A stretch of 64,000 nucleotides of DNA from assembly GCF_050920415.1 (NCBI RefSeq), contig NZ_CP169309.1. One strand, written 5' to 3'. Position numbers and translations under genes: made by a program. The notes beneath the pieces are model-generated. The model saw only the letters and a list, made by a program, of their open reading frames with translations. It had not been told where the DNA came from and did not search any database. Positions within the stretch are counted from its first letter, which is position 1. The number at the start of each line of letters is the position of its first letter. Shown one piece after another: positions 19,851 to 57,327 of the stretch. The stretch is from Escherichia coli. Lineage in GTDB: Bacteria; Pseudomonadota; Gammaproteobacteria; Enterobacterales; Enterobacteriaceae.

Positions 19851-20774
19851 TCAATAACCCTTATTCGCGTTTAACGGTTTTACCTCTTTTTTAAACGCTT
19901 CAATGGTAGATTTATATTTCTTGTGAATCTTGTCTTCGGTATAATTACCGTTTGCGGCCAGATTTGCACTTACAATCGCTTCCACTTGCTCGGTTATTTC
20001 CACTTGTTGGTAACCTGCATTAACCAGAAAATTATAAATAAGAGAGTAATCTTCACCCTGCAAAAAAATATAAGAGCCAGTTCGAAGTTCCTCATCCCCT
20101 CCATAGATTTTAAGAGCAAAGCCCAAAGATTCTATGACCATGGCATAATTTCCATTATTTATTTTCTCGCAAAAATACCATCCTTCACATTCTTTAATGC
20201 TACCTCCTGGCCCTTCAAGTTCAAATTTACCCCGTTTTAATTTGCTTACTACATTCTCCAAATAAGCAGAATCGTAAGATAAGTTACCCGCCGCCTTCCG
20301 AAAATAACCGTTAATCCTTTCAGGTATGTCAGACTGTTTTTTCTGCAAAATATCATAGGCATACAATCTTCTATTTTGTGCTAGTGGAAATTCACGGTTT
20401 TTAAAGTCTATAAATGAGTTATACTCATTTATTGTTATAGGGATTTCTTCGTATTCAAATCCAGTGCCTCGCAATGTCATTGTATATTCGGCACCGTTAT
20501 CTTTAAGGCGGAAGCTGATAAGAAAATTATCCATGGAGTGAACGGTTTCATCTTTTAATGAAAGCACCTGATAACTATTTTTATCGATCTGTGTTGCTCT
20601 AAGAAAGAACTCCCTTAAAATTAACAGACTATCATAATTCGAAATCCAATCCCTTTTCTTAAATGCATGCTGAATATTATTAAAGAAATTATTTGAATGT
20701 ATTTTTGTATGCGATGACTTTACAAATAACTCCACTGCACCAAAAAAATTATTGTGTCTAATCTTGGGTAACAT
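19851..20774 (-). CDS. ytfI: Uncharacterized protein YtfI (AT-rich gene)
   Basis: 307 aa ORF, markedly AT-rich, flanked by AT-rich intergenic DNA; no recognisable domain. Confidence 0.8.
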   Translation of the reverse strand: MLPKIRHNNFFGAVELFVKSSHTKIHSNNFFNNIQHAFKKRDWISNYDSLLILREFFLRATQIDKNSYQVLSLKDETVHSMDNFLISFRLKDNGAEYTMTLRGTGFEYEEIPITINEYNSFIDFKNREFPLAQNRRLYAYDILQKKQSDIPERINGYFRKAAGNLSYDSAYLENVVSKLKRGKFELEGPGGSIKECEGWYFCEKINNGNYAMVIESLGFALKIYGGDEELRTGSYIFLQGEDYSLIYNFLVNAGYQQVEITEQVEAIVSANLAANGNYTEDKIHKKYKSTIEAFKKEVKPLNANKGY

Positions 20775-29759: not shown

Positions 29760-30398
29760 ATGCCCGGGCGCTTTGAACTAAAACCAACCCTGGAGAAAGT
29801 CTGGCACGCGCCGGACAATTTTCGCTTCATGGACCCGCTACCGCCGATGCATCGTCGGGGGATCATTATTGCCGCTATTGTATTGGTGGTCGGATTTCTA
29901 CTCCCGTCGGATGATACGCCAAACGCGCCGGTGGTGACGCGTGAAGCACAGTTAGATATTCAGTCGCAATCACAACCGCCGACAGAAGAACAGCTGCGGG
30001 CGCAATTAGTCACACCACAAAATGATCCTGATCAGGTGGCTCCGGTCGCTCCAGAACCGATACAGGAAGGCCAACCGGAAGAGCAGCCGCAAACCTCGCA
30101 AGTGCAACCTTTCCAGCCAGATAGCGGAATTGACAATCAATGGCGCTCTTATCGTGTCGAACCCGGTAAAACAATGGCGCAGCTGTTCCGCGACCACGGA
30201 CTGCCCGCTACCGATGTCTATGCAATGGCGCAGGTAGAAGGCGCGGATAAGCCACTGAGTAATTTGCAAAATGGGCAGATGGTGAAAATCCGCCAGAACG
30301 CCAGCGGCGTGGTGACGGGCTTAACCATTGATACGGGAAATAATCAACAGGTTCTGTTTACCCGCCAGCCGGATGGCAGTTTTATTCGCGCGCGGTAG
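29760..30398 (+). CDS. ytfB: OapA-domain cell-division/envelope protein YtfB
   Basis: GAGGAA Shine-Dalgarno then ATG 29760 ([19 protein letters not shown]..., 212 aa); TM anchor and Pro/Gln-rich linker. Confidence 0.9.
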
Positions 30399-31029
30399 AT
30401 GAAGGGTCAACCAGAAGCCAGCTAAGGATCGTCTCTTTGATGACCTTACGCCTGGCTTCCAGTGCCTGCGGTGAAACCATACTGATGTGATAAACCAGGC
30501 CAAGCGTATGTTGGTTGATCAAATAATATCCTCCAAGAGCAGCAATATTAATATTCACCTGCAACGGGTCGATATCTGGCTTAAAAATATTGCGCCGTTT
30601 GCCTTCAGCTAATAATGACTCCATTAACTGTAAGTGTGCGTGGTTAATTTCTAAAAGGCGCTGTGATTTTGCATAATGCACCCCTTTACTCTGGTTTTCA
30701 CTATGCACAATTTTTAAAAACCAGGGGTTAGCAATGTAATAATCCCAGGTGAAATCGATAATTTTCTCAATGGCTTTTTGTGGCGGAAGACCTGAGAAAT
30801 CAAGGGATTTTTCTTTTTGCCGAATATCATTCCAGGTATATTCCAGCACTTCGATAAATAAATTTTCTTTATTACCAAAGTGATGATAAACCGTCTGTTT
30901 ACTGCACTCCGCGGCCTTGACGATATTATCGACTCTGGCCCCTTCGTAACCATATTCGGCAAATTCATTAACCGCACATAACAACAGCTTTTCCTTCAGG
31001 CTTTGTACGTTGCTGGTATCAAGATACAT
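30382..31029 (-). CDS. TetR/AcrR-family transcriptional regulator (islet regulator)
   Basis: ORF track start 31089 is GTG; ATG 31027-31029 gives [58 protein letters not shown] (TetR N-terminal HTH), 215 aa. Divergent from the downstream operon; 3' end overlaps the ytfB 3' end by 17 bp. Confidence 0.85.
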
Positions 31030-31151
31030 TCCGCTTCCCCACGTCTTCTTCGTGATGACTATCTTAACCCGATTTGTTAGAAGCTCCACTAAAATGGCTA
31101 AAAACTCGCAATTTCATCGGGTTATCAAATGCTCTGTGATCATTATCGCAT

Positions 31152-31173
31152 ATCAACCAACTAGATGGTTGAT
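31152..31173. promoter_or_regulatory. Candidate TetR operator (22 bp palindrome) in the islet divergent promoter
   Basis: ATCAACCA-ACTAGA-TGGTTGAT: perfect 8 bp inverted arms with a 6 bp spacer, between the regulator start (31029) and the operon start (31241). Confidence 0.4.
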
Positions 31174-31240
31174 CTTTCTTGCCACACATTGCAAGCTAAT
31201 CGTCACTTAAGGAAATAATATTCAAAAAGAGGGTTATTGT

Positions 31241-32032
31241 ATGAAGTCAACACGTCCTGTTGCTGTCATCACTGGAGCCGCACGTGGTATTGGAAAGGGC
31301 TGTGCACTGGAACTTGCGCGTGGCGGATTTAATCTGCTGATTAATGATCGTCCGGATGCCGACAGCGTAGAAAAATTACATGCCACACAACAAGAATGTC
31401 TGGCGGAAGGCGTGGAAGTGATTTGCTTCCCTGCTGATGTTGGCGATCTCTCCCTTCATGAAGAGATGCTCGACGCGGCGCAAAACCAGTGGGGACGTCT
31501 GGACTGTCTACTCAACAACGCAGGCATTTCAGTGAAAAAACGCGGTGACCTCCTCGACCTCGAACCAGACAGCTTCGACCAAAACATTGCCATTAACACC
31601 CGTGCGCCGTTCTTCCTTGCTCAGGCATTCAGTAAGCGATTACTGGCACAGCCGAAACCGGAAGCAGAACTGCCGCACCGCTCGATTATTTTTGTCAGTT
31701 CCATAAACGCCATCATGCTGGCGATGAATCGCGGCGAATATACCATTGCAAAAACTGCCGTCTCCGCCGCAGCTCGTCTGTTTGCCGCTCGCCTTTGCAA
31801 TGAACAAATTGGCGTTTATGAAGTGCGCCCTGGCCTAATCAAAACCGATATGACCATTCCGGCAACGGCTTATTACGACGAACTGATTGCTAAGGGGTTA
31901 GTGCCGTGGGGACGTTGGGGTTATCCGGCTGATATTGCCTCAACGGTCCGCGCGATGGCGGAAGGCAAACTGATTTACACCTGTGGTCAGGCGGTCGCCA
32001 TCGACGGCGGCTTAAGTATGCCGCGCTTCTGA
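31241..32032 (+). CDS. Short-chain dehydrogenase/reductase (SDR) family oxidoreductase
   Basis: 263 aa ORF; TGAARGIG cofactor-binding motif, NNAG, and catalytic Y-x3-K (EYTIAK); AGAGGG Shine-Dalgarno. Confidence 0.85.
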   Translation: MKSTRPVAVITGAARGIGKGCALELARGGFNLLINDRPDADSVEKLHATQQECLAEGVEVICFPADVGDLSLHEEMLDAAQNQWGRLDCLLNNAGISVKKRGDLLDLEPDSFDQNIAINTRAPFFLAQAFSKRLLAQPKPEAELPHRSIIFVSSINAIMLAMNRGEYTIAKTAVSAAARLFAARLCNEQIGVYEVRPGLIKTDMTIPATAYYDELIAKGLVPWGRWGYPADIASTVRAMAEGKLIYTCGQAVAIDGGLSMPRF

Positions 32033-32041
32033 GGCTGAATC

Positions 32042-32884
32042 ATGAGAGATCTGTTACAACGCCCGGATTTATTCAGTATCAATACTGCGACACTGGGCTA
32101 TAAAACGCCGCTACCTGCCATTATTGATGCCTGCGCCGCACGCGGTATTGGCGCGATTGCCCCCTGGCGCAGGGAGTTGCAGGGTGAAGATCTCCAGCAA
32201 ATCGCCCGCCAGCTTGCTGCCAGTAACATGAGCGTTTCCGGTTTGTGTCGTAGCACCTATTACACCGCGCCGACGCTGACGGAACGCAAACTGGCGATTG
32301 ATGATAACCGCCGGGCGCTGGACGACGCCGCTGTACTGAACGCCGCCTGTTATATGCAGGTGGTTGGCGGTCTGCCAATGGGAACAAAAGATCTGTACGA
32401 AGCACGGGAACAGGTGAAACAAGGGATTCGCCAGTTGCTGCCACATTCGAAAGAGGTCGGCGTGCCAATTGCACTGGAGCCACTGCACCCGATGACTGCT
32501 GCCGATCGTTCTTGTCTGTGCACATTACGTCAGGCGCTGGACTGGTGTGATGAACTCGATCCCGATGGCGAATTTGGCCTCGGCGTGGCGGTAGATGTCT
32601 ACCATGTCTGGTGGGACCCGGATCTCGCCAGTCAGATCCTGCGTGCCGGAAAACGCATCCTCGCGTTTCATGTTTCCGACTGGCTGGTGCCAACCACCGA
32701 TTTAGTCAATGATCGGGGAATGCCGGGAGATGGCGTCATTAATATTCCCTCTATTCGTCGGCTGGTTGAAAACGCCGGATTTAATGGCGCTATTGAACTG
32801 GAAATATTCTCGCCGTACTGGTGGCAGAAAGATATTAACAGCACGCTGGATATTAGCGTCGATCGCATCGCGCATTATTGCTAA
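32042..32884 (+). CDS. Sugar-phosphate isomerase/epimerase-like TIM-barrel enzyme (xylose-isomerase-like fold)
   Basis: 280 aa ORF with the LEP / FHVSD signature pattern typical of this fold; 9 nt downstream of the SDR stop. Confidence 0.7.
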   Translation: MRDLLQRPDLFSINTATLGYKTPLPAIIDACAARGIGAIAPWRRELQGEDLQQIARQLAASNMSVSGLCRSTYYTAPTLTERKLAIDDNRRALDDAAVLNAACYMQVVGGLPMGTKDLYEAREQVKQGIRQLLPHSKEVGVPIALEPLHPMTAADRSCLCTLRQALDWCDELDPDGEFGLGVAVDVYHVWWDPDLASQILRAGKRILAFHVSDWLVPTTDLVNDRGMPGDGVINIPSIRRLVENAGFNGAIELEIFSPYWWQKDINSTLDISVDRIAHYC

Positions 32885-32893
32885 GGAATGATC

Positions 32894-33670
32894 ATGAGTG
32901 ACCAACCCGTTCTGTTCAGCAGAGCGGCGGCTTCCTGCCGCCTGACATTGAACCGTGAAGATAAATGTCATGCTATTAATGAAGAAATGATCGAATCTCT
33001 CGACCATTATTTAAATGAAATTGAAAACGACACCACATTACGATTAGTCGAATTAACGGCAACCGGCGATAAATTCTTTTGTGCGGGCGGCGATATTAAA
33101 TCGTGGTCAGCCTATTCGCCATTAGATATGGGCAGAAAATGGATTAAACGCGGCAATGACGTTTTTAATCGCCTGCGCAATTTACCTCAATTAACGGTTG
33201 CGAATCTCAACGGTCATACTATCGGCGGTGGTATTGAACTTGCCTTGTGCTGCGATATTCGTATTGCCCGCCCCAGTGCGAAATTCTCTAATCCGGAAGT
33301 AATGCTCGGCATGGTGCCTGGCTGGATGGGCATTGAACGCGTGCTTAATCAGGTCGGTCCGGTGGTCGGTCGCCAGATGCTGATGCTGGGTAAACGCCTG
33401 ACGGCGCAGGAAGCTCAGGCGGCGAATTTAATTGATGAAGTGGTAGAAAAAGAACAGGTGGAAAGCTGGATGGCGAATCAGTTAGCGCAGCTGGAAAAAT
33501 GCGGTCCGGTGGCGCTCGCACATATCAAGCAACTGATTCTGGCTCTAGAAAATAAACATGCTGATTACCCGCACCAGTTACTGGCTGGATTAATGTCCGC
33601 CACTCAGGATTGCCAGCAGGCGACGCGCGCATTTGCCGAAAAAAGTAGCGTGAGCTTCCAAAATCAATAA
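32894..33670 (+). CDS. Enoyl-CoA hydratase/isomerase (crotonase) family protein
   Basis: Crotonase hallmarks FFCAGGDIKSW and GHTIGGGIELALCCDIRIA; ATG 32894 is preferred over 32888 on Shine-Dalgarno spacing. Confidence 0.85.
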   Translation: MSDQPVLFSRAAASCRLTLNREDKCHAINEEMIESLDHYLNEIENDTTLRLVELTATGDKFFCAGGDIKSWSAYSPLDMGRKWIKRGNDVFNRLRNLPQLTVANLNGHTIGGGIELALCCDIRIARPSAKFSNPEVMLGMVPGWMGIERVLNQVGPVVGRQMLMLGKRLTAQEAQAANLIDEVVEKEQVESWMANQLAQLEKCGPVALAHIKQLILALENKHADYPHQLLAGLMSATQDCQQATRAFAEKSSVSFQNQ

Positions 33671-33679
33671 GGAAATTGT

Positions 33680-35221
33680 ATGCGTAAGATAACAACCGCC
33701 GAGACACTGGCGGCGCAAATTCAGGACGGCGCAACCATTGCCATTAGCGGTAATGGCGGCGGCATGGTGGAAGCGGACCATATTCTGGCTGCTATTGAAG
33801 CGCGTTTCCTGCAAACCGGACACCCGCGCGATCTGACATTAATCCACTCGCTGGGCATTGGCGATCGCGACTGCAAAGGCACTAACCGCTTCGCTCATGC
33901 AGATATGCTCAAACGCATCATTGCCGGACATTTTACCTGGTCGCCCAAGATGCAGGATCTGGTGAAAAACAATGCTATTGAAGCCTACTGCTTCCCTGGT
34001 GGCGTAATTCAGGCACTGCTGCGGGAGATCGGTGCCGGACGTCCAGGGCTTTTTACCCACGTTGGACTGGGATCGTTTGTTGATCCGCGCAACGGCGGCG
34101 GTAAGTCGAACGCCAGCACCACTGAGGATCTGGTAGAACTGATTGAAATCGACGGTGAAACCAAACTTCGTTATCGCCCTTTCAAAGTGGATTACGCGAT
34201 TTTGCGTGGCACTTATGCTGATCCGCGTGGCAACGTCAGCCTCGAAGAAGAGGCGATTGATATGGATAGCTATTCCATGGCGCTGGCAGCACACAACAGC
34301 GGCGGCAAAGTGTTCGTACAGGTGCGCGATGTGCTGGAAGCTGGTGCCATTGAACCACGCCGGGTCAAATTACCGGGCATTCTGGTTGATGGCATCGTTG
34401 AACACCGCGAACAACCACAAACCTATCTTGGCGGTTACGATCTGACCATTAGCGGTCAGCATCGCCGTCTAAGTTCTAACGACGCAATTGAACTGGTTAG
34501 TCATCCGGTGCGCCGCCTGATTGCCCGTCGGGCAGCACGCGAACTGGTAGCTGGCGCTTCAACCAACTTTGGCTTTGGCATTCCCGGCGGCATTCCTGGG
34601 GTTGCACTGCGCGAAGGCGTGCCTTATCAAAGTTTATGGCTGAGCGTCGAGCAAGGCGTGCATAACGGTATGATGCTGGATGATGCTCTGTTCGGCTGCG
34701 CCCGTAACGCCGATGCCATTATTCCATCACTCGATCAATTCGAATTCTACAGTGGCGGAGGGATCGATATCACCTTCCTCGGCATGGGAGAGATGGATCA
34801 GCATGGTAACGTCAACGTCTCCCATCTCAATGGCAATCTCATTGGCCCCGGCGGATTTCTCGAAATTGCGCAAAACGCCCGTAAAGTGGTGTTCTGTGGC
34901 ACGTTCGACGCCAAAGGTAGCAAGATTGATGTAACACCAGATGGCTTGCATATCGCCCAGTCAGGTCAAATCCCTAAACTGGTTACCCAGGTGGAAAAAA
35001 TCACTTTTAGCGCCGCCTACGCACAGCAAAGCGGTCAGGAAGTGTTGTATATCACTGAACGTGCAGTATTCCAGTTAACGGCAGAAGGCGTTGAATTAAT
35101 TGAAATCGCGCCGGGTGTGGAGATTGAACGCGACATTCTGCCGCATATGGCTTTCCGTCCAATTATCAATCAGCCACGCCTGATGGAAAGTAGCCTGTTT
35201 ACGCCGATGGAGGATGCATGA
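33680..35221 (+). CDS. Fused family-I CoA-transferase (acyl-CoA:acetate/3-ketoacid CoA-transferase-like)
   Basis: 513 aa ORF about the size of fused alpha/beta family-I CoA-transferases, with glycine-rich loops (ISGNGGG, SGGGIDITFLGMGE); AAGGA Shine-Dalgarno. Confidence 0.7.
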   Translation: MRKITTAETLAAQIQDGATIAISGNGGGMVEADHILAAIEARFLQTGHPRDLTLIHSLGIGDRDCKGTNRFAHADMLKRIIAGHFTWSPKMQDLVKNNAIEAYCFPGGVIQALLREIGAGRPGLFTHVGLGSFVDPRNGGGKSNASTTEDLVELIEIDGETKLRYRPFKVDYAILRGTYADPRGNVSLEEEAIDMDSYSMALAAHNSGGKVFVQVRDVLEAGAIEPRRVKLPGILVDGIVEHREQPQTYLGGYDLTISGQHRRLSSNDAIELVSHPVRRLIARRAARELVAGASTNFGFGIPGGIPGVALREGVPYQSLWLSVEQGVHNGMMLDDALFGCARNADAIIPSLDQFEFYSGGGIDITFLGMGEMDQHGNVNVSHLNGNLIGPGGFLEIAQNARKVVFCGTFDAKGSKIDVTPDGLHIAQSGQIPKLVTQVEKITFSAAYAQQSGQEVLYITERAVFQLTAEGVELIEIAPGVEIERDILPHMAFRPIINQPRLMESSLFTPMEDA

Positions 35222-37299
35222 GTCAGCTTGATGACACCCTCCTTGATGCGCTGACGCACGTCACTTTCCCGAAGGGTTTTGTGTCAGCAGAGCCAGCGTC
35301 AATTGTCACGGTTGAAGATGTCGATTACCCGATCTGGCAAGTTGATGCGCTAGTCGTTGGTAGCGGCGCGGCAGGGCTGCGCGCAGCGGTTGAACTTAAG
35401 CGCCGCCAGCAAAATGTGCTGATCGCCACCGCCGGGTTATATATGGGGACATCGGCATGTTCTGGTTCCGATAAACAGACGCTGTTTACCGCCGCTACCG
35501 CGGGCAACGGCGATAACTTCGCTAAACTGGCGGAAGCACTGGCGAGCGGTGGGGCGATGGATCACGACACCGCTTATGTCGAAGCGGTAGGTTCTCTGCA
35601 CACTCTTGGCGGGTTGCAATATCTTGGTCTGGAATTACCGGAAGATCGCTATGGCGCAATTCTTCGTTATCAAACCGACCATGACGAAGCCGGGCGAGCA
35701 ACCTCGTGTGGGCCGCGTACTTCTCGCCTAATGGTGAAAGTATTGCTGGAGGAAGTGCAGCGTCTTGCCATACCACTACTGACCAGTGCAACGGTGATTA
35801 AGCTCCTGCATCAGCACGGAGAGAATGGCGAAGATCGCGTTGCGGGGGCTATTCTCGCAACCGGTTCCCGCGCCTATAACCCTTGGGGGCTGGCTATTGT
35901 GACGGCGCCCAATGTGGTACTGGCAACGGGCGGACCGGGCGAGCTTTATCGCGACAGTGTTTATCCACATAAATGCTTCGGCTCGCTGGGGCTGGCGCTG
36001 GAAGAAGGTCTGACGCTAACCAATCTGACCGAAAGCCAGTTTGGTATAGGCACGCCGCGCAGCACGTTTCCGTGGAATTTGTCCGGCACCTATGTACAGG
36101 TGATCCCATATATCTATTCCGTGGATGCCGGGGGCAACGAGTATAACTTCCTCGCAGATTACTATCGCACCACCCAGGAGCTGGCTTCAAACATCTTCCG
36201 TAAAGGCTATCAGTGGCCGTTTCACGCCACACGAGTGATGGATTTTGGCTCCAGCTTGTTAGATATGGCAGTAGCGCAAGAGCAGCAATCAGGGCGTCAG
36301 GTATTTATGGATTTCAATCGCAATCCTGAACCTGTGCCGGGTGACCTGCCGTTCTCATTAGATCGACTGGACGACGACGTTCGCGCGTATCTGGAAAATA
36401 ACGACGCTCTGGCACCATCGCCCATCGAACGACTGCAACGAATGAATCCGCTGTCTATCTCGCTGTATAAGATGCACGGTTACGATCTCACCACGCAGCC
36501 ATTGCAGTTTGCCATGAATAATCAGCATATGAATGGCGGCATTGAAGTGGATATCTGGGGGCAAACCTCCCTGTCCGGCTGTTTCGCCGTGGGGGAAGTT
36601 GCTGGCACACACGGCGTCACTCGCCCTGGTGGTGCGGCATTGAATGCCGGGCAGGTTTTTGCTGTTCGTCTGGCACGTTTTATTGGTTGCACGCAAAAGC
36701 GGTCCGTTGAGGATGATGTCGCGCAGCTAGTAGCCTCACCTCTGCATACAATCAGAGAAGTTATCGCTCAGGCACTGGCAAACGAGAACGGAATGACGCT
36801 GGCAACGGTAAAAGAAAAAATCCAGGCGCGAATGTCTGATTACGCGGGATTTATTTGCCATGCTGATAAAGTTCGTCACGCCGCCCGTGACGCCATGCTG
36901 TTAAATGAATTTGCGCAGCAACATGGTCTAACTATCAACCACGCCGGTGAAATTGCCGAGCTATTTATGTGGCGGCATATGGCATTAACATCCGCTGCGG
37001 TGTTAAGCCAGCTATCACATTATATTGATGCTGGCGGTGGTAGTCGTGGAGCGCGGATGATTATTGATCCACAAGGAGAATATCTTCCACAAACTCGTCG
37101 CGGCGCAATCGAAGATTGGCGTTTTCGCTCTGAACAAGCTGAAGATAAAAATCACAGACTAACTCTCTCCTTTTCACAAGGTTTATTTATTAATGAAATT
37201 AAGTTCTTGAGAAACTTACCGCATATTAAAGGTATTTACTTTGAGAAGAATTGGCCTGATTTTCTTAACGGAACAATTTATCAGACACGGCATGAATAA
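35218..37299 (+). CDS. FAD-binding flavoprotein of the fumarate reductase / succinate dehydrogenase / L-aspartate oxidase superfamily
   Basis: 693 aa ORF; N-terminal dinucleotide-binding motif DALVVGSGAAGLRAAVEL; ATG overlaps the CoA-transferase stop (ATGA); the last ~300 nt are AT-rich. Confidence 0.75.
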   Translation: MSQLDDTLLDALTHVTFPKGFVSAEPASIVTVEDVDYPIWQVDALVVGSGAAGLRAAVELKRRQQNVLIATAGLYMGTSACSGSDKQTLFTAATAGNGDNFAKLAEALASGGAMDHDTAYVEAVGSLHTLGGLQYLGLELPEDRYGAILRYQTDHDEAGRATSCGPRTSRLMVKVLLEEVQRLAIPLLTSATVIKLLHQHGENGEDRVAGAILATGSRAYNPWGLAIVTAPNVVLATGGPGELYRDSVYPHKCFGSLGLALEEGLTLTNLTESQFGIGTPRSTFPWNLSGTYVQVIPYIYSVDAGGNEYNFLADYYRTTQELASNIFRKGYQWPFHATRVMDFGSSLLDMAVAQEQQSGRQVFMDFNRNPEPVPGDLPFSLDRLDDDVRAYLENNDALAPSPIERLQRMNPLSISLYKMHGYDLTTQPLQFAMNNQHMNGGIEVDIWGQTSLSGCFAVGEVAGTHGVTRPGGAALNAGQVFAVRLARFIGCTQKRSVEDDVAQLVASPLHTIREVIAQALANENGMTLATVKEKIQARMSDYAGFICHADKVRHAARDAMLLNEFAQQHGLTINHAGEIAELFMWRHMALTSAAVLSQLSHYIDAGGGSRGARMIIDPQGEYLPQTRRGAIEDWRFRSEQAEDKNHRLTLSFSQGLFINEIKFLRNLPHIKGIYFEKNWPDFLNGTIYQTRHE

Positions 37300-37319
37300 T
37301 ATTGCAAAGGTTAATCACT

Positions 37320-37796
37320 ATGCGAAATATAATCAGATCTATTAATTCATTGCTTTCCACATTGAACATTACCATTTTGGCAATTATTGTGATGTGCGTT
37401 ACATGGCAAGTAGTAGCACGATTTATCTTTAAAAGCCCCAGCATTTTTACAGATGAACTTAGTCGTTTACTATTTATTTGTCTTGGACTTTTTGGTGGTG
37501 CTTATACTGCCGGACAAAACCGACATCTGGCCATTGATCTTCTGCCAATGATGCTAAAAGGAAAATCCCGACGTTATTTATTCTTATGTATTCAGGCCAT
37601 TGTTATTCTTTTTGCCTCTATCATTATGGTTTATGGTGGCGGGTTATTAACACTGGACACATTTGATTCAGGGCAAACTTCTCCGGCTTTAGGCTGGCAG
37701 ATGGGATATATTTACATGAGCATTCCAATAAGTGGCATCCTTATTATTATATACACCATAGATACAGTTTTAACCGAACTTAAACAACCACTCTAA
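37320..37796 (+). CDS. TRAP transporter small permease (DctQ-like)
   Basis: ORF track start 37302 is TTG; ATG 37320 with AAGG Shine-Dalgarno gives a ~158 aa four-TM protein; strongly AT-rich. Confidence 0.8.
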   Translation: MRNIIRSINSLLSTLNITILAIIVMCVTWQVVARFIFKSPSIFTDELSRLLFICLGLFGGAYTAGQNRHLAIDLLPMMLKGKSRRYLFLCIQAIVILFASIIMVYGGGLLTLDTFDSGQTSPALGWQMGYIYMSIPISGILIIIYTIDTVLTELKQPL

Positions 37797-37818
37797 AATA
37801 AGTAGGGATGGAGAAAAC

Positions 37819-39120
37819 ATGGATTACTGGTTACCGATCATTGTGTTATTTGGTGCTTTCTTTTTTATGTTGGCATTAGGTGTTCCTATTGTCTATGCTA
37901 TTGGTTTATCAACACTGGCATCAATTACTACACAACTCGATTTCAACTCAGCGTTAAGTGTGGTTTCCCAAAAGTTAGCCTCCGGGTTAGATAGTTTTAC
38001 GTTGTTGGCAATCCCATTTTTTATTTTGTCTGGCAACATTATGAATCACGGAGGAATAGCGCGACGATTAATCAACTTTGCCCGAATTCTCGGCGGTCGT
38101 CTGCCAGGCTCACTTGCCCACTGTAATATTCTTGCCAATATGCTGTTCGGGGCAATTTCTGGTTCAGCCGTGGCTTCGGCGGCTGCGATGGGCGGCGTCA
38201 TGCATCCGCAACAGGTTAAAGAGGGCTACGACCCGGCATTCAGTACTGCAGTTAACGTTGCCTCTGCCCCGACGGGTTTGCTTATTCCACCCAGTAATAC
38301 GTTAATCGTCTATTCACTGGTCAGTGGTGGTACTTCTATTGCCGCACTGTTCCTGGCAGGATATGTCCCGGGAATTTTATTGGGCCTGGCGCTGATGACT
38401 GTGGCTGGTATTATCGCGGTACGCCGGGGTTATCCAAAACCAGAACGTCCGACTTTGCGCCAGGCTGGAGTGGCAATATGGATGGCGATCCCCAGTATTT
38501 TCCTGATTGTATTAATTATGGGTGGTGTACTAAGCGGTATTTTTACCCCGACAGAAGCATCTGCAATTGCGGTAATTTATACCCTTTTCCTTGCACTGGT
38601 TCTTTATCGTGAAATATCAGTTAAAGATTTACCTAAGATATTTCTGGAGTCCGTCATTACCACTGCAATTGTCTTGTTGTTAATTGGTTCTTCAATGGGA
38701 ATGTCATGGGCAATGTCAAACGCTGACGTTCCCTTCCTGATTCTCGATTTGCTTAACACTATTTCTGACAATCCAATAATCATCCTGCTTATTATCAATA
38801 TTATCCTGTTGATTATCGGCACATTTATGGATATGACACCGGCAGTACTGATTTTTACGCCGATATTTTTACCCGTTGTCACCGAACTGGGTATGGACCC
38901 GATTCACTTTGGTATTGTCATGGTACTGAACATGTGTATCGGTATTTGTACTCCGCCTGTAGGCAGTGTGTTATTTGTCGGTTGTAGTGTATCTAAATTA
39001 CCGATTAATAAAATTATCAAACCTATGCTGCCATTCTATGCCGTGATGGTATTGGTGCTGGCAATGGTTACCTATATTCCGCAAATCAGTATGGCATTGC
39101 CAAGAGCACTGGGCTACTGA
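37819..39120 (+). CDS. TRAP transporter large permease (DctM-like)
   Basis: 433 aa polytopic membrane ORF MDYWLPIIVLFGAFFFMLALGVPIVYAIGL...; AT-rich. Confidence 0.88.
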   Translation: MDYWLPIIVLFGAFFFMLALGVPIVYAIGLSTLASITTQLDFNSALSVVSQKLASGLDSFTLLAIPFFILSGNIMNHGGIARRLINFARILGGRLPGSLAHCNILANMLFGAISGSAVASAAAMGGVMHPQQVKEGYDPAFSTAVNVASAPTGLLIPPSNTLIVYSLVSGGTSIAALFLAGYVPGILLGLALMTVAGIIAVRRGYPKPERPTLRQAGVAIWMAIPSIFLIVLIMGGVLSGIFTPTEASAIAVIYTLFLALVLYREISVKDLPKIFLESVITTAIVLLLIGSSMGMSWAMSNADVPFLILDLLNTISDNPIIILLIINIILLIIGTFMDMTPAVLIFTPIFLPVVTELGMDPIHFGIVMVLNMCIGICTPPVGSVLFVGCSVSKLPINKIIKPMLPFYAVMVLVLAMVTYIPQISMALPRALGY

Positions 39121-39172
39121 TATGCATTAACTGGCGGCACCTGCCGCCATATTTATTAGAAAAGGAACATCT

Positions 39173-40144
39173 ATGAAAATAAAAGTATCCGCTGGCATTA
39201 TCGGTGCTGTTCTTATGCTATCCGCAAGCCAGTCCTGGGCAGTAACATTAAAACTTAGCCATAATCAGGATAAATCTCATCCTGTTCATAAAGCGATGGA
39301 GTTCTTTGCGAAAAAGAGCAAAGAGTACTCTAACGGTGATATTACTATTCGTATTTATCCAAATGGAACATTGGGTACTCAACGAGAAACAATGGAGCTG
39401 ATTCGTTCTGGTGCTATTCCGCTGGTAAAAACCAATGCGGCGGAGATGGAAGCCTTCGAGAGTTCGTATAAAATATTTAGCCTGCCTTATTTGTTCCGCG
39501 ATCGTGATCATTATTATCAGGTCATGCAAGGCGATATCGGAAGGAAAATCCTCGACTCAACGAAAAGCAAAGGTTATTTCGGGCTGACTTTCTATGATGG
39601 AGGCGCCCGCAGTTTCTACGGTAATAAACCGGTACTGAAACCAGACGATCTGAAAGGCATGAAAGTCCGTGTCCAGCCAAGTCCTGGCGCAGTTGAAATG
39701 ATCAAAGTCATGGGCGGTAACCCGACGCCACTGGATTACGGCGAGCTGTATACGGCCTTACAGCAGGGCGTGGTCGATATGGCAGAAAACAGCGTGATGG
39801 CACTGACCACTATGCGTCACGGTGAAGTGGCAAAATCCTTTAGCCTTGATGAGCACACCATGGTGCCCGATGTGGTTCTGATGAGTAATGCTGCATTTGA
39901 TAAACTCAGCCCTGAAAATCAGGCAGTTATATTAAAAGCAGCGAAAGAATCGATGAGTTACATGAAGGAGTTATGGAGCGAGCAAGAGAAACAAGAATTT
40001 GCAAAACTGGATAAAATGGGCGTAAAAGTCTACCCGGTTGATAAAGCACCGTTTATCGAGAAAGTACAACCGATGTACGCAAACTTCGCTAAAGATAACC
40101 CTGCCCTTGCCCCAATGCTGGCTGATATTCAGGCGGCTAAGTAA
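39173..40144 (+). CDS. TRAP transporter periplasmic solute-binding protein (DctP-like)
   Basis: 323 aa ORF with signal peptide MKIKVSAGIIGAVLMLSASQSWA; last gene of the operon. Confidence 0.88.
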   Translation: MKIKVSAGIIGAVLMLSASQSWAVTLKLSHNQDKSHPVHKAMEFFAKKSKEYSNGDITIRIYPNGTLGTQRETMELIRSGAIPLVKTNAAEMEAFESSYKIFSLPYLFRDRDHYYQVMQGDIGRKILDSTKSKGYFGLTFYDGGARSFYGNKPVLKPDDLKGMKVRVQPSPGAVEMIKVMGGNPTPLDYGELYTALQQGVVDMAENSVMALTTMRHGEVAKSFSLDEHTMVPDVVLMSNAAFDKLSPENQAVILKAAKESMSYMKELWSEQEKQEFAKLDKMGVKVYPVDKAPFIEKVQPMYANFAKDNPALAPMLADIQAAK

Positions 40145-40201
40145 TTACCTTCATGGGGCTGCTTATTGTGGCCCTTATCGATATCAGCAAGTGCTCGCTA
40201 T

Positions 40202-40236
40202 AAAAGCAAAACGCCGACCAATGGTCGGCGTTTTTA
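40202..40236. terminator. Bidirectional rho-independent terminator (islet operon / rplI)
   Basis: ACGCCGACCA-A-TGGTCGGCGT perfect hairpin flanked by AAAAGCAAA upstream and TTTTT downstream; sits between the convergent TRAP binding-protein gene and rplI. Confidence 0.85.
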
Positions 40237-40255
40237 CGTCTCGTTGAATAACGAA

Positions 40256-40717
<462 letters not shown>

Positions 40718-40746
40718 TCAAAGTCGTATTAATGGACCGTGACCGA

Positions 40747-41293
<547 letters not shown>

Positions 41294-53820: not shown

Positions 53821-54459
53821 TTAGCCTCCCCAGTGCCCACGGGCGCTGGAAGAACGACCATAGCCGCCGCGAGAAACAGTTGACGCTTTTCTGGTGGTAA
53901 AGCCGCCCGAGGAGTAAGACTCTTTTTTGCCAGAACCGGAGCGCCAGGAGTAATCACCGGAAGTATTGCGCCAGACGGGGCGGGAAGCAAATGAGGATCC
54001 ACCGCTGTTATAAACGAACGGCTCATCGCGATCTTTACGAATAACCCGGCTTAATAAAAATCCAGAAATGACCGGGATCCAACTCTGTTCAACATTGTCG
54101 TAGTAGCAATTTTCGTACTTAGACTGACAATTCTGCTGAGTCATATTCTTCGGAACATCGGCATAAAATGCCGCTTTGGCATTGTTCCAGCCATGAGCAC
54201 AGATATCTGAATTATTACCGTCATCAATACAATCCTGCACTGTCGAGTAAAACGTTCCGTCACCGTCGTTATCGACATCACCACTATCGCCACAACCTTT
54301 CAATACAAAAAAAGCTGCACCGCCCATTAGCGCCAACGTTAAGTATTTTTGTGCGTAGCGATTGCGTCGCGGCTCAAAAGGATTATTAGGTCTTCCAATG
54401 CGACTGATCGCTCCGTGACCAATTTTACTGTTATTTCTTGATTTGCGTTTTCTGGCCAT
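53821..54459 (-). CDS. yjfM: DUF1190 protein YjfM
   Basis: 212 aa ORF with basic N-terminus MARKRKSRNNSK..., one TM segment and a Gly/Ser/Tyr-rich tail. Confidence 0.9.
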   Translation of the reverse strand: MARKRKSRNNSKIGHGAISRIGRPNNPFEPRRNRYAQKYLTLALMGGAAFFVLKGCGDSGDVDNDGDGTFYSTVQDCIDDGNNSDICAHGWNNAKAAFYADVPKNMTQQNCQSKYENCYYDNVEQSWIPVISGFLLSRVIRKDRDEPFVYNSGGSSFASRPVWRNTSGDYSWRSGSGKKESYSSGGFTTRKASTVSRGGYGRSSSARGHWGG

Positions 54460-54468
54460 GATCGTCCA

Positions 54469-54867
54469 TTACCATGTCATACAAGCTGCGTTAAAAATAC
54501 CGCCAGCCAGCGCGGCGGTTCCCATAAACATTCCTGCTGCGGTATTGTGATTAATAATTTTTTCGCTTAATGCTGGCATATAAAGTCTGACGCCAGCAAA
54601 AACGAGTAACTGAATCACCAGTGCGATCCCGCCCCAGGCAAAATAATCCGGAATACTCACCGCATTGATTGCCGCACTAGATAATGGGATCACGTAACCC
54701 AACAATGTACCACTGAACGCCAGTGCCGCCGCGGTATTATTGTTTTTAATTAACTGCCATTCGTTGTGCGGTGTAATTTTGGAGTAGATAAACAGAAAAA
54801 TAATCACCATAGCCACGCCAATAAAAAAATAGGCGCTAAAGGCAAGAAGTGAATCCAGTATATGCAT
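54469..54867 (-). CDS. yjfL: DUF350 inner-membrane protein YjfL
   Basis: 132 aa hydrophobic ORF with about four TM helices. Confidence 0.9.
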   Translation of the reverse strand: MHILDSLLAFSAYFFIGVAMVIIFLFIYSKITPHNEWQLIKNNNTAAALAFSGTLLGYVIPLSSAAINAVSIPDYFAWGGIALVIQLLVFAGVRLYMPALSEKIINHNTAAGMFMGTAALAGGIFNAACMTW

Positions 54868-54884
54868 CGTAAACGTCCTTGTAA

Positions 54885-55544
54885 TTAACCAATAATATGA
54901 AGTGATGTCAGTGGGATATCAACACCCAGTGCGCGCGAAAATAACCACTCCGGCTCGCCGAGATCGTTAAAAGATTCCTCACCATTTAACAGCAAATATT
55001 CACAGGTATCTTCGGTCACCTGCCGTTCATAGCCCATGGTAAAATTATGCACTTCCCATTTGGCGTGGTTTTGATTTTCAACTTTTTCCAGCATATAGAC
55101 GGGTTCGATATTCCCCGGTTCTTCGCTGTTAAAAAATCGCTGCCAGCGTTTTTCCTGCCAGTTTAATGTCATTGCCCCCATCGCTTTGGCGTTGATCGCT
55201 TCGCGCCAGTGGCTCTCTTTGCTGATACCGTAGCTCTCTTCATAGACAAAGAGCTTTATATCATCAATGTCATCAATATCTTCGCCGCCGGTGGTATTGA
55301 TTTGCAGAAATTCATCGCCCGAAGTGTAGTAGCGGAAAATCTGACTACCGCCGCCCAGATCGATGTGGCTGACAGCGGCTACCGTAAATTCTTCACCCGG
55401 CAGCGCAATCAGCAATTCATCTTCCAGCAAACGAAACGCTAACGTGTCGAGCGTAAAGCCGCTATTGAGATGAAGTCCCAGCGGGCCACGTGCGGTTACA
55501 GGTTTATCATCCTTACCAAACAGACGCTTGAAAAAACTTGTCAT
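54885..55544 (-). CDS. yjfK: DUF2491 protein YjfK
   Basis: 219 aa ORF MTSFFKRLFGKDDKPVTARGPLGLHLNSG...; start overlaps the stop of the upstream channel-like gene (ATGA). Confidence 0.9.
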   Translation of the reverse strand: MTSFFKRLFGKDDKPVTARGPLGLHLNSGFTLDTLAFRLLEDELLIALPGEEFTVAAVSHIDLGGGSQIFRYYTSGDEFLQINTTGGEDIDDIDDIKLFVYEESYGISKESHWREAINAKAMGAMTLNWQEKRWQRFFNSEEPGNIEPVYMLEKVENQNHAKWEVHNFTMGYERQVTEDTCEYLLLNGEESFNDLGEPEWLFSRALGVDIPLTSLHIIG

Positions 55545-56611
55545 ATGCTTCCCTCAATGTCCTGCCATACCACTTCTTCAGCCAAAATACGGTTATTGCC
55601 AATAAGATGCAGCCACATACCGCCTTTAACTTCCGTTGCAATGACTGGATTCAGTTCCATTCCCCTACCATTTTTACAACTGCTTATTCCCAGGACGGTG
55701 GCATCATGATGAAGTTTCATATAATGCATCAATGCGCCATAACGCATCGAGGTAACCCGTTCAGGAATCGGTAAAACAAACCCCGTATCCCCCAGCATTG
55801 GATTCATAATCGATGCCACTGATTGAGATGAACCGGGATCTTGTATTGAACGGGAAAGTTGTTCTGCTGAAATATTTCGCACTATTTCAATACGTTGACA
55901 ATGAACCTCTAATAAACGAGCGTAGCGTTCATCTTCCAGATAAGCGACGATATGGCATCTTTCAGGAATAAAATCCGCCAGGGATAGTGCGGTCGTGAAC
56001 GTCTGCTCATCTGTTTGCGAAAAGATGATGACACTTTGGCAATTTGCCAGTCCCATGCGGGTATGTTCATGCGGATCATTAAAATTACTAATACGAATGA
56101 AATCGACCCAATTATTTCCAGGCATCGGATGTTGAATATCATCCCGCTCACACAAAAGTACCCGGCCAAATGCTCTTCGGGAATCAAACAACAATAATGA
56201 AATCATCTTTTCAGTCTGATGCCCGCGCCATCCAATGACCAGCATATGGTTGCGCAAATTGCTGTAGTCGCCCATTCCCGTCATTCCTTTCGCCAATATG
56301 TCTTGCACTAATGCAATGACTTTTCCCATTAAAGCGCCAAATAAACCAACACTCACAGGAATCTGCCAGAGCGCTGTGAACAGACGTCCCCCAACCGTTT
56401 GGGGTGTGATATCACCAAACCCCAGCGTTGATCCCACAACCGAGCAGTAATAAATAAAATTACTCAGTTGACCTACCAACGCCTCTTCATGCAACGCAGT
56501 TAACACCAGATAACAAAACAGATACTGTCCTGTAAATAATCCAGTCAATGCCGGCCAGGTAAGCCTGGAAAGGTGACGTCGGCAGGTTTTAATGATCCAG
56601 GAGAAGAACAT
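55541..56611 (-). CDS. Two-TM potassium-channel-like protein with C-terminal RCK/TrkA-N-like domain
   Basis: 356 aa ORF: TM1 (LTGLFTGQYLFCYLVLTAL), pore helix with selectivity-filter-like TLGFGD, TM2 (LFTALWQIPVSVGLFGALMG), then an RCK-type segment starting HMLVIGWRGHQTEK. Start ATG shares its A with the yjfJ TAA stop; stop overlaps the yjfK ATG. Confidence 0.8.
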   Translation of the reverse strand: MFFSWIIKTCRRHLSRLTWPALTGLFTGQYLFCYLVLTALHEEALVGQLSNFIYYCSVVGSTLGFGDITPQTVGGRLFTALWQIPVSVGLFGALMGKVIALVQDILAKGMTGMGDYSNLRNHMLVIGWRGHQTEKMISLLLFDSRRAFGRVLLCERDDIQHPMPGNNWVDFIRISNFNDPHEHTRMGLANCQSVIIFSQTDEQTFTTALSLADFIPERCHIVAYLEDERYARLLEVHCQRIEIVRNISAEQLSRSIQDPGSSQSVASIMNPMLGDTGFVLPIPERVTSMRYGALMHYMKLHHDATVLGISSCKNGRGMELNPVIATEVKGGMWLHLIGNNRILAEEVVWQDIEGSI

Positions 56612-57309: not shown

Positions 57310-57327
57310 AAATACCTGTCCTTGTAA

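What the first reader, a model, noticed from the sequence alone, without database searches (positions are those of the whole stretch)
37000..39200. Compositional mosaic inside the islet: TRAP permease genes are much more AT-rich than the upstream enzyme genes
The SDR-to-CoA-transferase genes look GC-typical for the host. The 3' end of the flavoprotein gene and the two TRAP permease genes are visibly AT-rich, with long runs such as ATTATTATTATATACACCATAGATACAG and codon usage dominated by A/T-ending codons. This suggests the transporter module and the enzyme module have different origins and were joined, or that the membrane genes are under different constraints.
Basis: seen in the sequence. 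Interest (0 to 1): 0.4.

Follow-up and report, generated by a model that had tools for sequence, protein, structure and literature searches.

The report
Swappable transporter end of old operon
The AT-rich stretch is real and marks the replaceable uptake end (here a TRAP transporter, in other strains an MFS transporter) of an old, conserved E. coli catabolic operon; this is a tidy but ordinary case of operon mosaicism, not a recent foreign insertion.

Summary
GC3 falls from 0.54 in the enzyme genes to 0.31 in the last 134 codons of the flavoprotein gene and in dctQ, 0.43 in dctM and 0.46 in dctP (p = 1.6e-11). The break lies inside the flavoprotein gene, not at a gene border.

The window is E. 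coli chromosome. The operon sits between ytfB and rplI, the same place as in Salmonella, Klebsiella and other enterics, so it is ancestral rather than a recent islet. K-12 carries a deletion scar.

The "two modules joined" reading is supported. At this locus 1448 of 5426 complete E. coli genomes carry enzymes plus TRAP, and 1693 carry the same enzymes plus an unrelated MFS transporter. Klebsiella shows the same alternation. A Rhodocyclaceae genome has TRAP proteins 77–86% identical to these, but enzymes only 41–64% identical.

The AT-richness is not a fresh-import signature. The same downward offset appears in three enteric lineages of different genomic GC, although synonymous sites are saturated. 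Membrane-protein amino-acid bias explains part of the total GC deficit but not the GC3 deficit.

One detail is specific to this strain. The 1.3-kb junction at 36,660–37,960 is a rare haplotype, found in 4 of 1448 TRAP genomes and about 21% different from the common allele.

The kind of event is known. Interest is modest.

The parts
30382..31029 (-). TetR-family regulator gene (ytfA in E. coli nomenclature). It is divergent from the operon and AT-rich: GC 0.415, GC3 0.44.
   Evidence: Pfam TetR_N plus TetR_C_29. RefSeq annotation. GC values. Change points at 30,474 and 31,251. K-12 ytfA is a 402-bp pseudogene remnant. The name ytfA is used as a TetR-family regulator in PMC6790063.
31241..35221 (+). 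GC-typical enzyme genes: SDR (31241-32032), xylose-isomerase-like TIM barrel (32042-32884), enoyl-CoA hydratase (32894-33670) and fused family-I CoA-transferase (33680-35221).
   Evidence: Pfam and NCBIfam. GC3 0.49-0.57, all within 1 sd of the window's core genes. Proteins are 87-94% identical between genera and cluster by genus.
35218..36659 (+). Conserved, GC-typical 5' part of the FAD-dependent oxidoreductase gene (fumarate-reductase / L-aspartate-oxidase superfamily).
   Evidence: Pfam FAD_binding_2 covers residues 43-475. Only distant PDB matches. Residues 1-490 are 96-99% identical within E. coli and 87-94% between genera. GC3 0.55.
36660..37960 (+). Rare, highly divergent junction haplotype. 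It spans the flavoprotein 3' end (to 37,299), dctQ (37,320-37,796), the dctQ-dctM spacer with a 20-bp indel, and the first ~47 codons of dctM. It contains the lowest-GC stretch of the region.
   Evidence: Sharp rise and fall of mismatches against the common TRAP allele. At 99% identity or more in 4 of 1448 TRAP-bearing genomes; all others are at or below 81%. pS 0.77 in the flavoprotein tail, dS 0.92-1.0 in dctQ, dN/dS 0.04-0.06.
36898..37299 (+). Fast-evolving AT-rich C-terminal tail of the flavoprotein (residues 561-693), GC3 0.31. It is the homologous but scrambled left junction of the transporter slot.
   Evidence: GC3 profile. At least four deeply diverged tail classes occur in Escherichia, 59-82% aa identical to one another. 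The tail has lower GC3 than the rest of the gene in every version and genus, MFS forms included. Only the final G-I-[YW]-F-E-K-N-W-P motif stays alignable across all versions.
37320..37796 (+). dctQ, TRAP small membrane subunit. GC 0.367, GC3 0.31.
   Evidence: Pfam DctQ 3e-31. Composition. z=-3.3.
37819..39120 (+). dctM, TRAP large membrane subunit. GC 0.443, GC3 0.43, with a GC-normal core at about 38,050-38,500 driven by amino-acid composition.
   Evidence: Pfam DctM 5e-119. TIGR00786. Codon-position profile compared with Klebsiella and Rhodocyclaceae.
39132..39149 (+). G+C-rich stem-loop followed by a T-rich tract, in the dctM-dctP spacer.
   Evidence: Terminator-like scan, 7 pairs of which 6 are G-C. 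Its function was not tested.
39173..40144 (+). dctP, TRAP periplasmic solute-binding subunit. GC 0.452, GC3 0.46.
   Evidence: Pfam DctP 2e-84. The best solved relatives are 4OVR, 4X8R, 4N8Y and 4N15 at E 1e-73 to 1e-68. 4X8R and 4N8Y are bound to glucuronate and galacturonate (PMC11668362).
40208..40234 (-). rplI terminator hairpin. This is the right-hand point where all versions of the locus (TRAP, MFS, MFS+yjfZ, Klebsiella) become alignable again, so it is the right edge of the replaceable slot.
   Evidence: Alignment A1. Terminator scan, 12-pair stem.

Best explanation
Shown:
- The region is the 3' end of an old, TetR(YtfA)-controlled catabolic operon: SDR, TIM-barrel enzyme, enoyl-CoA hydratase, CoA-transferase and FAD oxidoreductase.
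- The operon occupies the same chromosomal slot (ytfB ... rplI) throughout Enterobacteriaceae.
- Its enzyme part is conserved and follows host composition. Its uptake part is a replaceable slot lying between the flavoprotein stop codon and the rplI terminator.
- In this strain the slot holds a TRAP transporter (dctQMP). Other E. coli hold an unrelated MFS permease, and a few hold MFS plus a MaoC hydratase and lack the ECH gene.

Inferred:
- Exchange happens by homologous recombination anchored on the left in the conserved part of the flavoprotein gene and on the right in the ribosomal-protein operon. That would explain why the last ~200 codons of the flavoprotein gene form a patchwork of deeply diverged allele classes.
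- The composition step therefore marks the boundary between a conserved module and a module with a separate history.
- The TRAP genes are long-term residents of enteric genomes, not recent arrivals. Their AT offset, like that of the flavoprotein tail and the regulator, looks like a stable gene-specific property that shifts in parallel with host GC.
- Roughly half of the total GC deficit of dctQ and dctM comes from hydrophobic-residue codons. The rest is low GC3 of unresolved cause.

Specific to this window: the 1.3-kb junction at 36,660-37,960 was replaced by a rare allele, probably from a diverged Escherichia lineage.
For: Composition step.

Same locus, alternative transporters:
- E. coli TRAP form in 1448 of 5426 genomes.
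- E. coli MFS form in 1693.
- MFS+MaoC form without ECH.
- Klebsiella sp. with TRAP against K. oxytoca with MFS. Salmonella with MFS. A third enteric lineage with TRAP.
- E. coli MFS is only 50-51% identical to the Klebsiella/Salmonella MFS, so the slot was refilled more than once.

Slot edges: flavoprotein stop and rplI terminator. No repeats or mobile-element genes flank it.

Discordant histories: against a Rhodocyclaceae operon, DctM is 86%, DctP 76.5% and DctQ 63% identical, but SDR 55%, TIM-barrel 61%, ECH 41%, CoA-transferase 62% and flavoprotein 55%. Between E. coli and Klebsiella, DctP (81%) is less conserved than the enzymes (87-93%).

Recombination patchwork in the flavoprotein 3' part.

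Old residence and stable offset (GC3):
- E. coli: enzymes 0.49-0.57; dctQ/M/P 0.31/0.43/0.46.
- Klebsiella: enzymes 0.61-0.71; dctQ/M/P 0.43/0.50/0.55.
- 59% GC enteric: enzymes 0.76-0.79; dctQ/M/P 0.60/0.71/0.70.
- pS is 0.73-0.84 between genera.
- TRAP and enzyme identities give the same branching among the three enteric lineages.

Functional genes: dN/dS 0.02-0.07 in dctQ, dctM and dctP.

Rare junction allele.

Ancestral locus and K-12 deletion scar.
Against: - No donor of the TRAP module was identified. Beyond Escherichia, Klebsiella, one unnamed enteric lineage and one Rhodocyclaceae genome, DctP identity drops to 53-61%.
- The direction of transfer between enterics and Rhodocyclaceae is unknown.
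- The cause of the persistent low GC3 is not established. In the Rhodocyclaceae operon the TRAP genes show no offset, so it is not intrinsic to the proteins.
- The substitution-direction test is low-powered: 7 alleles, polarised only by minor allele. It cannot by itself exclude slow amelioration.
- Recombination anchoring is inferred from mosaic patterns, not from a formal breakpoint analysis.
Confidence: 0.72

Rival explanations
1. Recent horizontal acquisition of the TRAP genes from an AT-rich donor, with composition not yet ameliorated to E. coli. This is the classic reading of a compositional step.
For: dctQ and the flavoprotein tail lie 3.3 sd below the window's core genes in GC3 and score low on a core-based codon index. 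The next-nearest DctP relatives (53-61%) are mostly from lower-GC gammaproteobacteria such as Vibrio, Psychromonas, Providencia and Morganella. The TRAP form is present in only 27% of E. coli.
Against: - The same relative offset is seen in Klebsiella and in a 59% GC enteric lineage, at the syntenic locus. Synonymous sites are saturated between them, and TRAP branching matches enzyme branching.
- Minor-allele synonymous changes in dctM and dctP are balanced (60 AT-to-GC against 68 GC-to-AT), and the implied equilibrium GC3 of 0.43 is close to the current 0.46.
- No low-GC donor turned up among 5.8 billion proteins.
- No mobility genes or flanking repeats.
- The closest non-enteric TRAP is in a 63% GC genome.
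Confidence: 0.13
2. No difference in origin is needed. The AT-richness simply reflects the amino-acid and codon constraints of integral membrane proteins.
For: GC1 is 0.42 in dctQ and 0.49 in dctM, against 0.57-0.64 in the enzyme genes. That accounts for about half of their total GC deficit. The GC-normal core of dctM and the AT-rich flanks follow first and second codon positions, and they are conserved in Klebsiella and Rhodocyclaceae.
Against: - GC3 is also low, at 0.31 and 0.43.
- Six core membrane-protein genes in the same window have GC3 0.59-0.70; only two (the K-channel gene and yjfL) are low at 0.42-0.45.
- The soluble flavoprotein tail, periplasmic DctP and cytoplasmic TetR are AT-shifted as well.
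- The Rhodocyclaceae dctQMP shows no offset from its neighbours.
- This reading does not explain the TRAP/MFS alternation.
Confidence: 0.1
3. The 3' end of the operon is decaying under relaxed selection, and AT-biased mutation is eroding it.
For: The flavoprotein tail is the fastest-evolving protein segment, 48-69% identical between genera against 87-94% for residues 1-490. It is AT-shifted at all three codon positions. Deletion and IS1-disrupted variants of the locus exist.
Against: All three TRAP reading frames are intact with full-length Pfam matches. dN/dS is 0.02-0.07 for dctQ, dctM and dctP, and about 0.09-0.11 for the flavoprotein tail where dS is measurable. The TRAP form is kept in 1448 genomes.
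Confidence: 0.04

Closest known systems
Mosaic operons formed by in-situ gene displacement
   Same: A conserved operon keeps its place and most of its genes. One functional slot is filled by unrelated or xenologous genes in different genomes, and the gene histories within one operon disagree.
   Different: Here the displacement is seen as a standing polymorphism within one species: TRAP in 27% and MFS in 31% of complete E. coli genomes. It recurs in Klebsiella at the syntenic locus, and a hypervariable 3' end of the adjacent enzyme gene serves as the junction.
Paired high-affinity TRAP and lower-affinity MFS uptake for one substrate, for example Salmonella STM3169-3171 (TRAP) and ExuT (MFS) for D-glucuronate (PMC7660916)
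   Same: A TRAP system and an MFS permease serve as alternative routes for a carboxylate. The solved structures closest to this DctP include the hexuronate binders 4X8R and 4N8Y.
   Different: In Salmonella the two transporters coexist at different loci. Here they are mutually exclusive alleles of one slot. The substrate here is unknown, and the neighbouring genes are CoA-dependent enzymes, not uxa/uxu genes.
Classical genomic islands recognised by atypical composition (Lawrence and Ochman amelioration model; from my own knowledge)
   Same: There is a compositional and codon-usage step inside an otherwise host-like region, and the element has a patchy distribution in E. coli.
   Different: There is no integrase, tRNA, direct repeat or IS at the edges. 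The locus is syntenic across genera. The offset is conserved although synonymous sites are saturated, which the amelioration model does not predict.

Membership tests
TRAP transporter (tripartite ATP-independent periplasmic) | Three components are present: small membrane subunit (DctQ), large membrane subunit (DctM) and periplasmic solute-binding protein (DctP). | tested here: met
   Pfam DctQ 108 bits, DctM 398 bits and DctP 284 bits, all far above the gathering scores and full length. TIGR00786 and TIGR00787 also match.
TRAP transporter (tripartite ATP-independent periplasmic) | Genes are intact, adjacent, co-oriented and under purifying selection. | tested here: met
   Open reading frames at 37320-37796, 37819-39120 and 39173-40144. 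dN/dS 0.02-0.07.
TRAP transporter (tripartite ATP-independent periplasmic) | Transport activity and its substrate. | not testable with these tools
   There is only similarity to solved binding proteins, some of them hexuronate binders. The closest non-orthologous DctPs sit in glucuronide/hexuronate loci.
Mosaic operon / in-situ gene displacement | Same operon and same chromosomal position, with one functional slot filled by non-homologous genes in different genomes. | tested here: met
   TRAP, MFS and MFS+MaoC forms all lie between ytfB and rplI in E. coli, Klebsiella and Salmonella.
Mosaic operon / in-situ gene displacement | Discordant evolutionary distances between the displaced module and the rest of the operon. 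| tested here: met
   Against Rhodocyclaceae, DctM is 86% and DctP 76.5% identical, while the enzymes are 41-64%. Between E. coli and Klebsiella the order is reversed: DctP 81% against enzymes 87-93%. No formal trees were built.
Recently acquired genomic island | Atypical base composition and codon usage. | tested here: met
   z=-3.3 for dctQ and the flavoprotein tail. The enzyme genes are not atypical.
Recently acquired genomic island | Mobility signatures at the borders: integrase, tRNA, IS elements or direct repeats. | tested here: not met
   No flanking repeats beyond chance-level short matches. No such genes are annotated.
Recently acquired genomic island | Absent from the syntenic position in related genera. 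| tested here: not met
   The operon is present at ytfB-rplI in Salmonella, the Klebsiella oxytoca group, E. albertii, E. whittamii, Entomohabitans and an unnamed 59% GC enteric. K-12 carries a deletion scar.
Hexuronate-specific TRAP binding proteins (4X8R / 4N8Y / 4N15 cluster) | Close sequence relationship and a hexuronate-catabolic gene context (uxaC, uxuA, uxuB). | tested here: not met
   These are the best PDB matches, but only at E 1e-73 to 1e-68. The gene context here is CoA-transferase, hydratase and flavoprotein, not uxa/uxu. Ligand-contact residues were not compared.

The most novel reading that the evidence does not exclude
The TRAP/MFS alternation, together with the multi-allelic C-terminal region of the flavoprotein, is a long-lived balanced polymorphism shared across enteric genera (a trans-species polymorphism of the uptake module). 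It would be maintained because high-affinity, binding-protein-dependent uptake and proton-coupled MFS uptake of the same unknown carboxylate pay off in different niches. On this reading, the persistent low GC3 of the alternative cassettes arises because each cassette can recombine only with the minority of genomes carrying the same form, which weakens GC-biased gene conversion.
Probability: 0.15. Interest if true: 0.55.

Novelty: new member of a known kind. Interest (0 to 1): 0.33.

Why it matters
The case shows that a compositional step inside an operon can mark an old module boundary and need not signal a recent import. That is a caution for composition-based island callers.

It also documents a clean natural experiment. 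One conserved, still uncharacterised CoA-dependent catabolic pathway is coupled to a TRAP transporter, to one of two unrelated MFS permeases, or is deleted, in thousands of sequenced E. coli. This could be used to identify the substrate, by ligand screening of DctP and growth tests on strains with each form. It could also be used to compare the ecological value of high-affinity and low-affinity uptake. None of this overturns current understanding.

Tried and rejected
1. Whether the GC-normal core of dctM (38,050-38,500) is a separate recombination patch. Rejected. It is a first/second-codon-position effect of a 100% conserved protein stretch, and it is identical in Klebsiella and Rhodocyclaceae.

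2. Search for a low-GC donor of dctQMP. The DctP search found only Escherichia, Klebsiella, one unnamed enteric lineage and one Rhodocyclaceae genome above 75% identity, then a drop to 53-61%. The two contexts read for those lower hits (Providencia, Vibrio) are glucuronide/hexuronate loci, not this operon.

3. Amelioration-direction test with 7 E. coli alleles. Enzymes: 141 AT-to-GC against 209 GC-to-AT. TRAP: 60 against 68. Fisher p = 0.21. This is inconclusive and gives no sign of upward drift.

4. Whether flavoprotein tails cluster by transporter type across genera. The tendency is weak: TRAP-linked tails are 61-62% identical across genera, against 53-60% for mixed pairs. Not convincing.

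5. Mobile-element scars, repeats and internal promoters. Nothing above the shuffled expectation.

6. Literature on the operon's function. The searches found no characterisation. They showed only that ytfA is counted as a variably present TetR-family regulator.

7. The genome-contig scan with the flavoprotein returned mostly distant homologues (54-61%) in other gene contexts. It added Escherichia and Entomohabitans loci, and it missed Klebsiella and Salmonella, which had to be reached through exact-protein look-ups.

8. My first GC3 test used the wrong codon position (first block). It was corrected.


Full report
**What the window is.**
The region 30,000-41,000 is 100% identical to the chromosome of E. 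coli strain MFDS1022581. RefSeq annotates it as follows:
- ytfB
- a TetR/AcrR regulator on the minus strand
- 3-ketoacyl-ACP-reductase-like SDR
- sugar-phosphate isomerase/epimerase-family TIM barrel
- enoyl-CoA hydratase
- acyl-CoA:acetate/3-ketoacid CoA-transferase
- FAD-dependent oxidoreductase
- TRAP small permease, TRAP large permease and TRAP substrate-binding protein
- rplI-rpsR-priB-rpsF on the minus strand

Pfam and NCBIfam agree with these assignments.

**Check of the observation.**
The composition step is real.
- Sliding GC drops from 0.52-0.57 to 0.37 at 37.0-38.0 kb.
- GC3 is 0.49-0.57 in the five enzyme genes, against 0.31 in dctQ, 0.43 in dctM and 0.46 in dctP.
- In-frame GC3 begins to fall near 36,900, inside the flavoprotein gene.
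- Likelihood change points on all bases fall at 37,057 and 38,047, and at 30,474 and 31,251 around the AT-rich regulator.
- Flavoprotein tail plus dctQMP against the enzymes gives GC3 0.406 against 0.537, p = 1.6e-11.
- Relative to 54 core genes of the window, the flavoprotein tail and dctQ lie at z = -3.3, dctM at -1.8 and dctP at -1.4. The enzyme genes are all within 1 sd, and a core-based codon index ranks the genes the same way.
- The quoted AT run is at 37,741-37,767.

**The membrane-constraint idea.**
About half of the total GC deficit of dctQ and dctM comes from first codon positions: GC1 is 0.42 and 0.49, against 0.57-0.64 in the enzyme genes. The GC-normal core of dctM at 38,050-38,500 is likewise a first/second-position effect of a fully conserved stretch, and it is seen unchanged in Klebsiella and in a Rhodocyclaceae homologue.

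GC3 is a different matter.
- Six core membrane genes in the same window (cycA, ytfF, ulaA, yjfF, ytfT, paeA) have GC3 0.59-0.70. Two others, the K-channel gene and yjfL, are low at 0.42-0.45.
- The soluble flavoprotein tail, periplasmic DctP and the TetR regulator are AT-shifted too.

This idea is therefore a partial contributor, not the explanation.

**The locus is old and polymorphic.**
The operon lies between ytfB and rplI in these other genomes:
- Salmonella enterica
- Klebsiella oxytoca
- a Klebsiella sp.
- E. whittamii and E. albertii, identified from sequence matches
- an unnamed 59% GC enteric lineage

The same enzyme set is also found in Entomohabitans; its flanking genes were not examined. 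K-12 keeps a 402-bp ytfA pseudogene and a 102-bp SDR fragment next to yjfZ, which is a deletion scar of the MFS+yjfZ form.

Among 5426 complete E. coli genomes:
- 1448 carry the TRAP form.
- 1693 carry the same enzymes followed by an MFS permease.
- 2 carry an MFS+MaoC arrangement like the L098 form, which lacks the ECH gene.
- The rest lack the transporter genes.

Klebsiella shows the same TRAP-or-MFS alternation. The E. coli MFS is only 50-51% identical to the Klebsiella/Salmonella MFS, so the slot has been refilled several times.

The non-homologous slot runs from the flavoprotein stop to the rplI terminator hairpin at 40,208-40,234. No repeats or mobility genes flank it.

**Separate histories of the two modules.**
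Enzyme proteins are 87-94% identical between genera and cluster by genus, whichever transporter follows them.

A Rhodocyclaceae genome (63% GC) carries tetR-MaoC-SDR-TIM-ECH-CoA-transferase-flavoprotein-dctQ-dctM plus an inverted dctP (organism identified). Identities to the window proteins are as follows:

| Protein | Identity to window |
|---|---|
| DctM | 86% |
| DctP | 76.5% |
| DctQ | 63% |
| CoA-transferase | 62% |
| TIM barrel | 61% |
| SDR | 55% |
| Flavoprotein | 55% |
| ECH | 41% |

Between E. coli and Klebsiella, DctP (81%) is less conserved than the enzymes. The much smaller TRAP distance to Rhodocyclaceae therefore cannot be a rate effect.

**Not a recent import.**
GC3 values are as follows:

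| Lineage | Enzymes | dctQ | dctM | dctP |
|---|---|---|---|---|
| E. coli | 0.49-0.57 | 0.31 | 0.43 | 0.46 |
| Klebsiella | 0.61-0.71 | 0.43 | 0.50 | 0.55 |
| 59% GC enteric | 0.76-0.79 | 0.60 | 0.71 | 0.70 |
| Rhodocyclaceae | 0.77-0.81 | 0.81 | 0.79 | 0.82 |

- Synonymous sites between the enteric lineages are saturated, with pS 0.73-0.84 in the TRAP genes.
- TRAP identities give the same branching as enzyme identities among the three enteric lineages.
- A crude minor-allele polarisation of synonymous changes shows no net AT-to-GC flow in dctM and dctP: 60 against 68, with an implied equilibrium GC3 of 0.43 against the current 0.46.
- The flavoprotein tail has lower GC3 than the rest of its gene in every version, MFS forms included.

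I conclude that the offset is a stable, gene-specific feature. Its cause is unresolved. Candidates are weaker selection on codon choice and weaker GC-biased conversion in a cassette that only a minority of genomes share. Neither was tested.

**The junction.**
Residues 491-693 of the flavoprotein are hypervariable. Within Escherichia there are at least four tail classes, 59-82% identical to one another. Residues 1-490 are 96-99% identical among the E. coli alleles compared. Different sub-segments group the alleles differently: the middle segment of the MFS allele L007 matches the common TRAP allele, while its tail matches the other MFS allele. This is the pattern expected from repeated crossovers. 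Where dS can be measured, dN/dS in the tail is about 0.1, so the tail is constrained, not decaying.

**A feature of this strain.**
Against the common TRAP allele, mismatches rise sharply at 36,660 and fall at 37,960, and there is a 20-bp indel in the dctQ-dctM spacer.
- This 1.3-kb patch is at 99% identity or more in only 4 of 1448 TRAP genomes. All others are at or below 81%.
- pS is 0.77 in the flavoprotein tail and dS 0.92-1.0 in dctQ, as deep as between genera. dN/dS is 0.04-0.06.
- The flavoprotein tail in the patch is closer to MFS-linked tails (78-82% aa) than to the common TRAP-linked tail (63%).
- The exact flavoprotein sequence occurs on a few hundred public contigs labelled E. coli or unnamed Escherichia sp..

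The patch is most simply an import by homologous recombination from a diverged Escherichia lineage. No donor was identified.

**Function (inferred, low confidence).**
- The enzyme set suggests CoA activation of an imported carboxylate, followed by flavin-dependent dehydrogenation or reduction, hydration and oxidation.
- The ECH gene is absent and a MaoC hydratase is present in the third form, which fits a hydratase step.
- The solved structures closest to this DctP include the hexuronate binders 4X8R and 4N8Y (PMC11668362).
- The closest non-orthologous DctPs sit in glucuronide/hexuronate loci.
- The gene context here lacks uxa/uxu genes.
- I found no published characterisation.

**Verdict.**
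This is a new example of a known kind of event, in-situ displacement within a mosaic operon, and it is of modest interest.

Noticed in passing
window 19851-20774 (- strand): A hypothetical gene between ytfJ and cysQ has the lowest GC3 of the 54 core genes scored outside the operon (0.318). It is probably another accessory insert.
   Followed up: no
window 53821-57729 (- strand; yjfM, yjfL, yjfK, K-channel gene, yjfJ, yjfI): A run of genes with below-average GC3 (0.40-0.45 for yjfI, yjfJ, the K-channel gene, yjfL and yjfM), compared with the window mean of 0.57.
   Followed up: no
window 39132-39149: A G+C-rich 7-bp stem-loop followed by a T-rich tract lies in the dctM-dctP spacer. It could modulate relative expression of the binding protein.
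   Followed up: no
window 30382-30398: The 3' ends of ytfB and the convergent TetR (ytfA) gene overlap by 17 bp. The regulator gene and the regulator-operon intergenic region form their own AT-rich segment (30,474-31,250, GC 0.39), which is AT-rich in every genus examined.
   Followed up: partly
L098 10176-11985; L008 10176-12004; L019 and L022: A third form of the operon lacks the enoyl-CoA hydratase gene and carries a MaoC-family dehydratase after the MFS gene. This looks like a non-orthologous replacement of the hydratase step. It is found in Salmonella, Entomohabitans, an Escherichia sp. and a few E. coli.
   Followed up: partly
L105 (K-12 MG1655, 4426628-4428095): K-12 ytfA is a 402-bp pseudogene remnant of this regulator. 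A 102-bp fragment of the SDR gene survives next to yjfZ, so K-12 lost about 7 kb of the MFS-form operon.
   Followed up: yes
L101 1488-2711; hits H46-H48: IS1-mediated damage to the MFS form. One genome has an IS1 replacing the region from the ECH gene to the flavoprotein tail. Others have an IS1 inside the MFS gene.
   Followed up: no
L102 4922-7744 (E. coli 21AH004, between ygiQ and ftsP): Some E. coli carry a second, unrelated TRAP system. It sits beside mannitol-dehydrogenase-family, zinc alcohol dehydrogenase, Ldh-family and GntR-family genes.
   Followed up: no
window 35100-35400, 35540-35900 and 39570-40000: Further short patches of 10-15% nucleotide divergence between E. coli alleles, inside the flavoprotein 5' half and dctP. 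The whole locus is a recombination mosaic, not only the junction.
   Followed up: partly
L004 1-1035 (E. coli 2017-02-2CC): In this strain ytfB and the regulator gene are 15-25% diverged from the window allele, and ytfB is annotated only as an OapA-family protein. This suggests an import that extends into the core flank.
   Followed up: no
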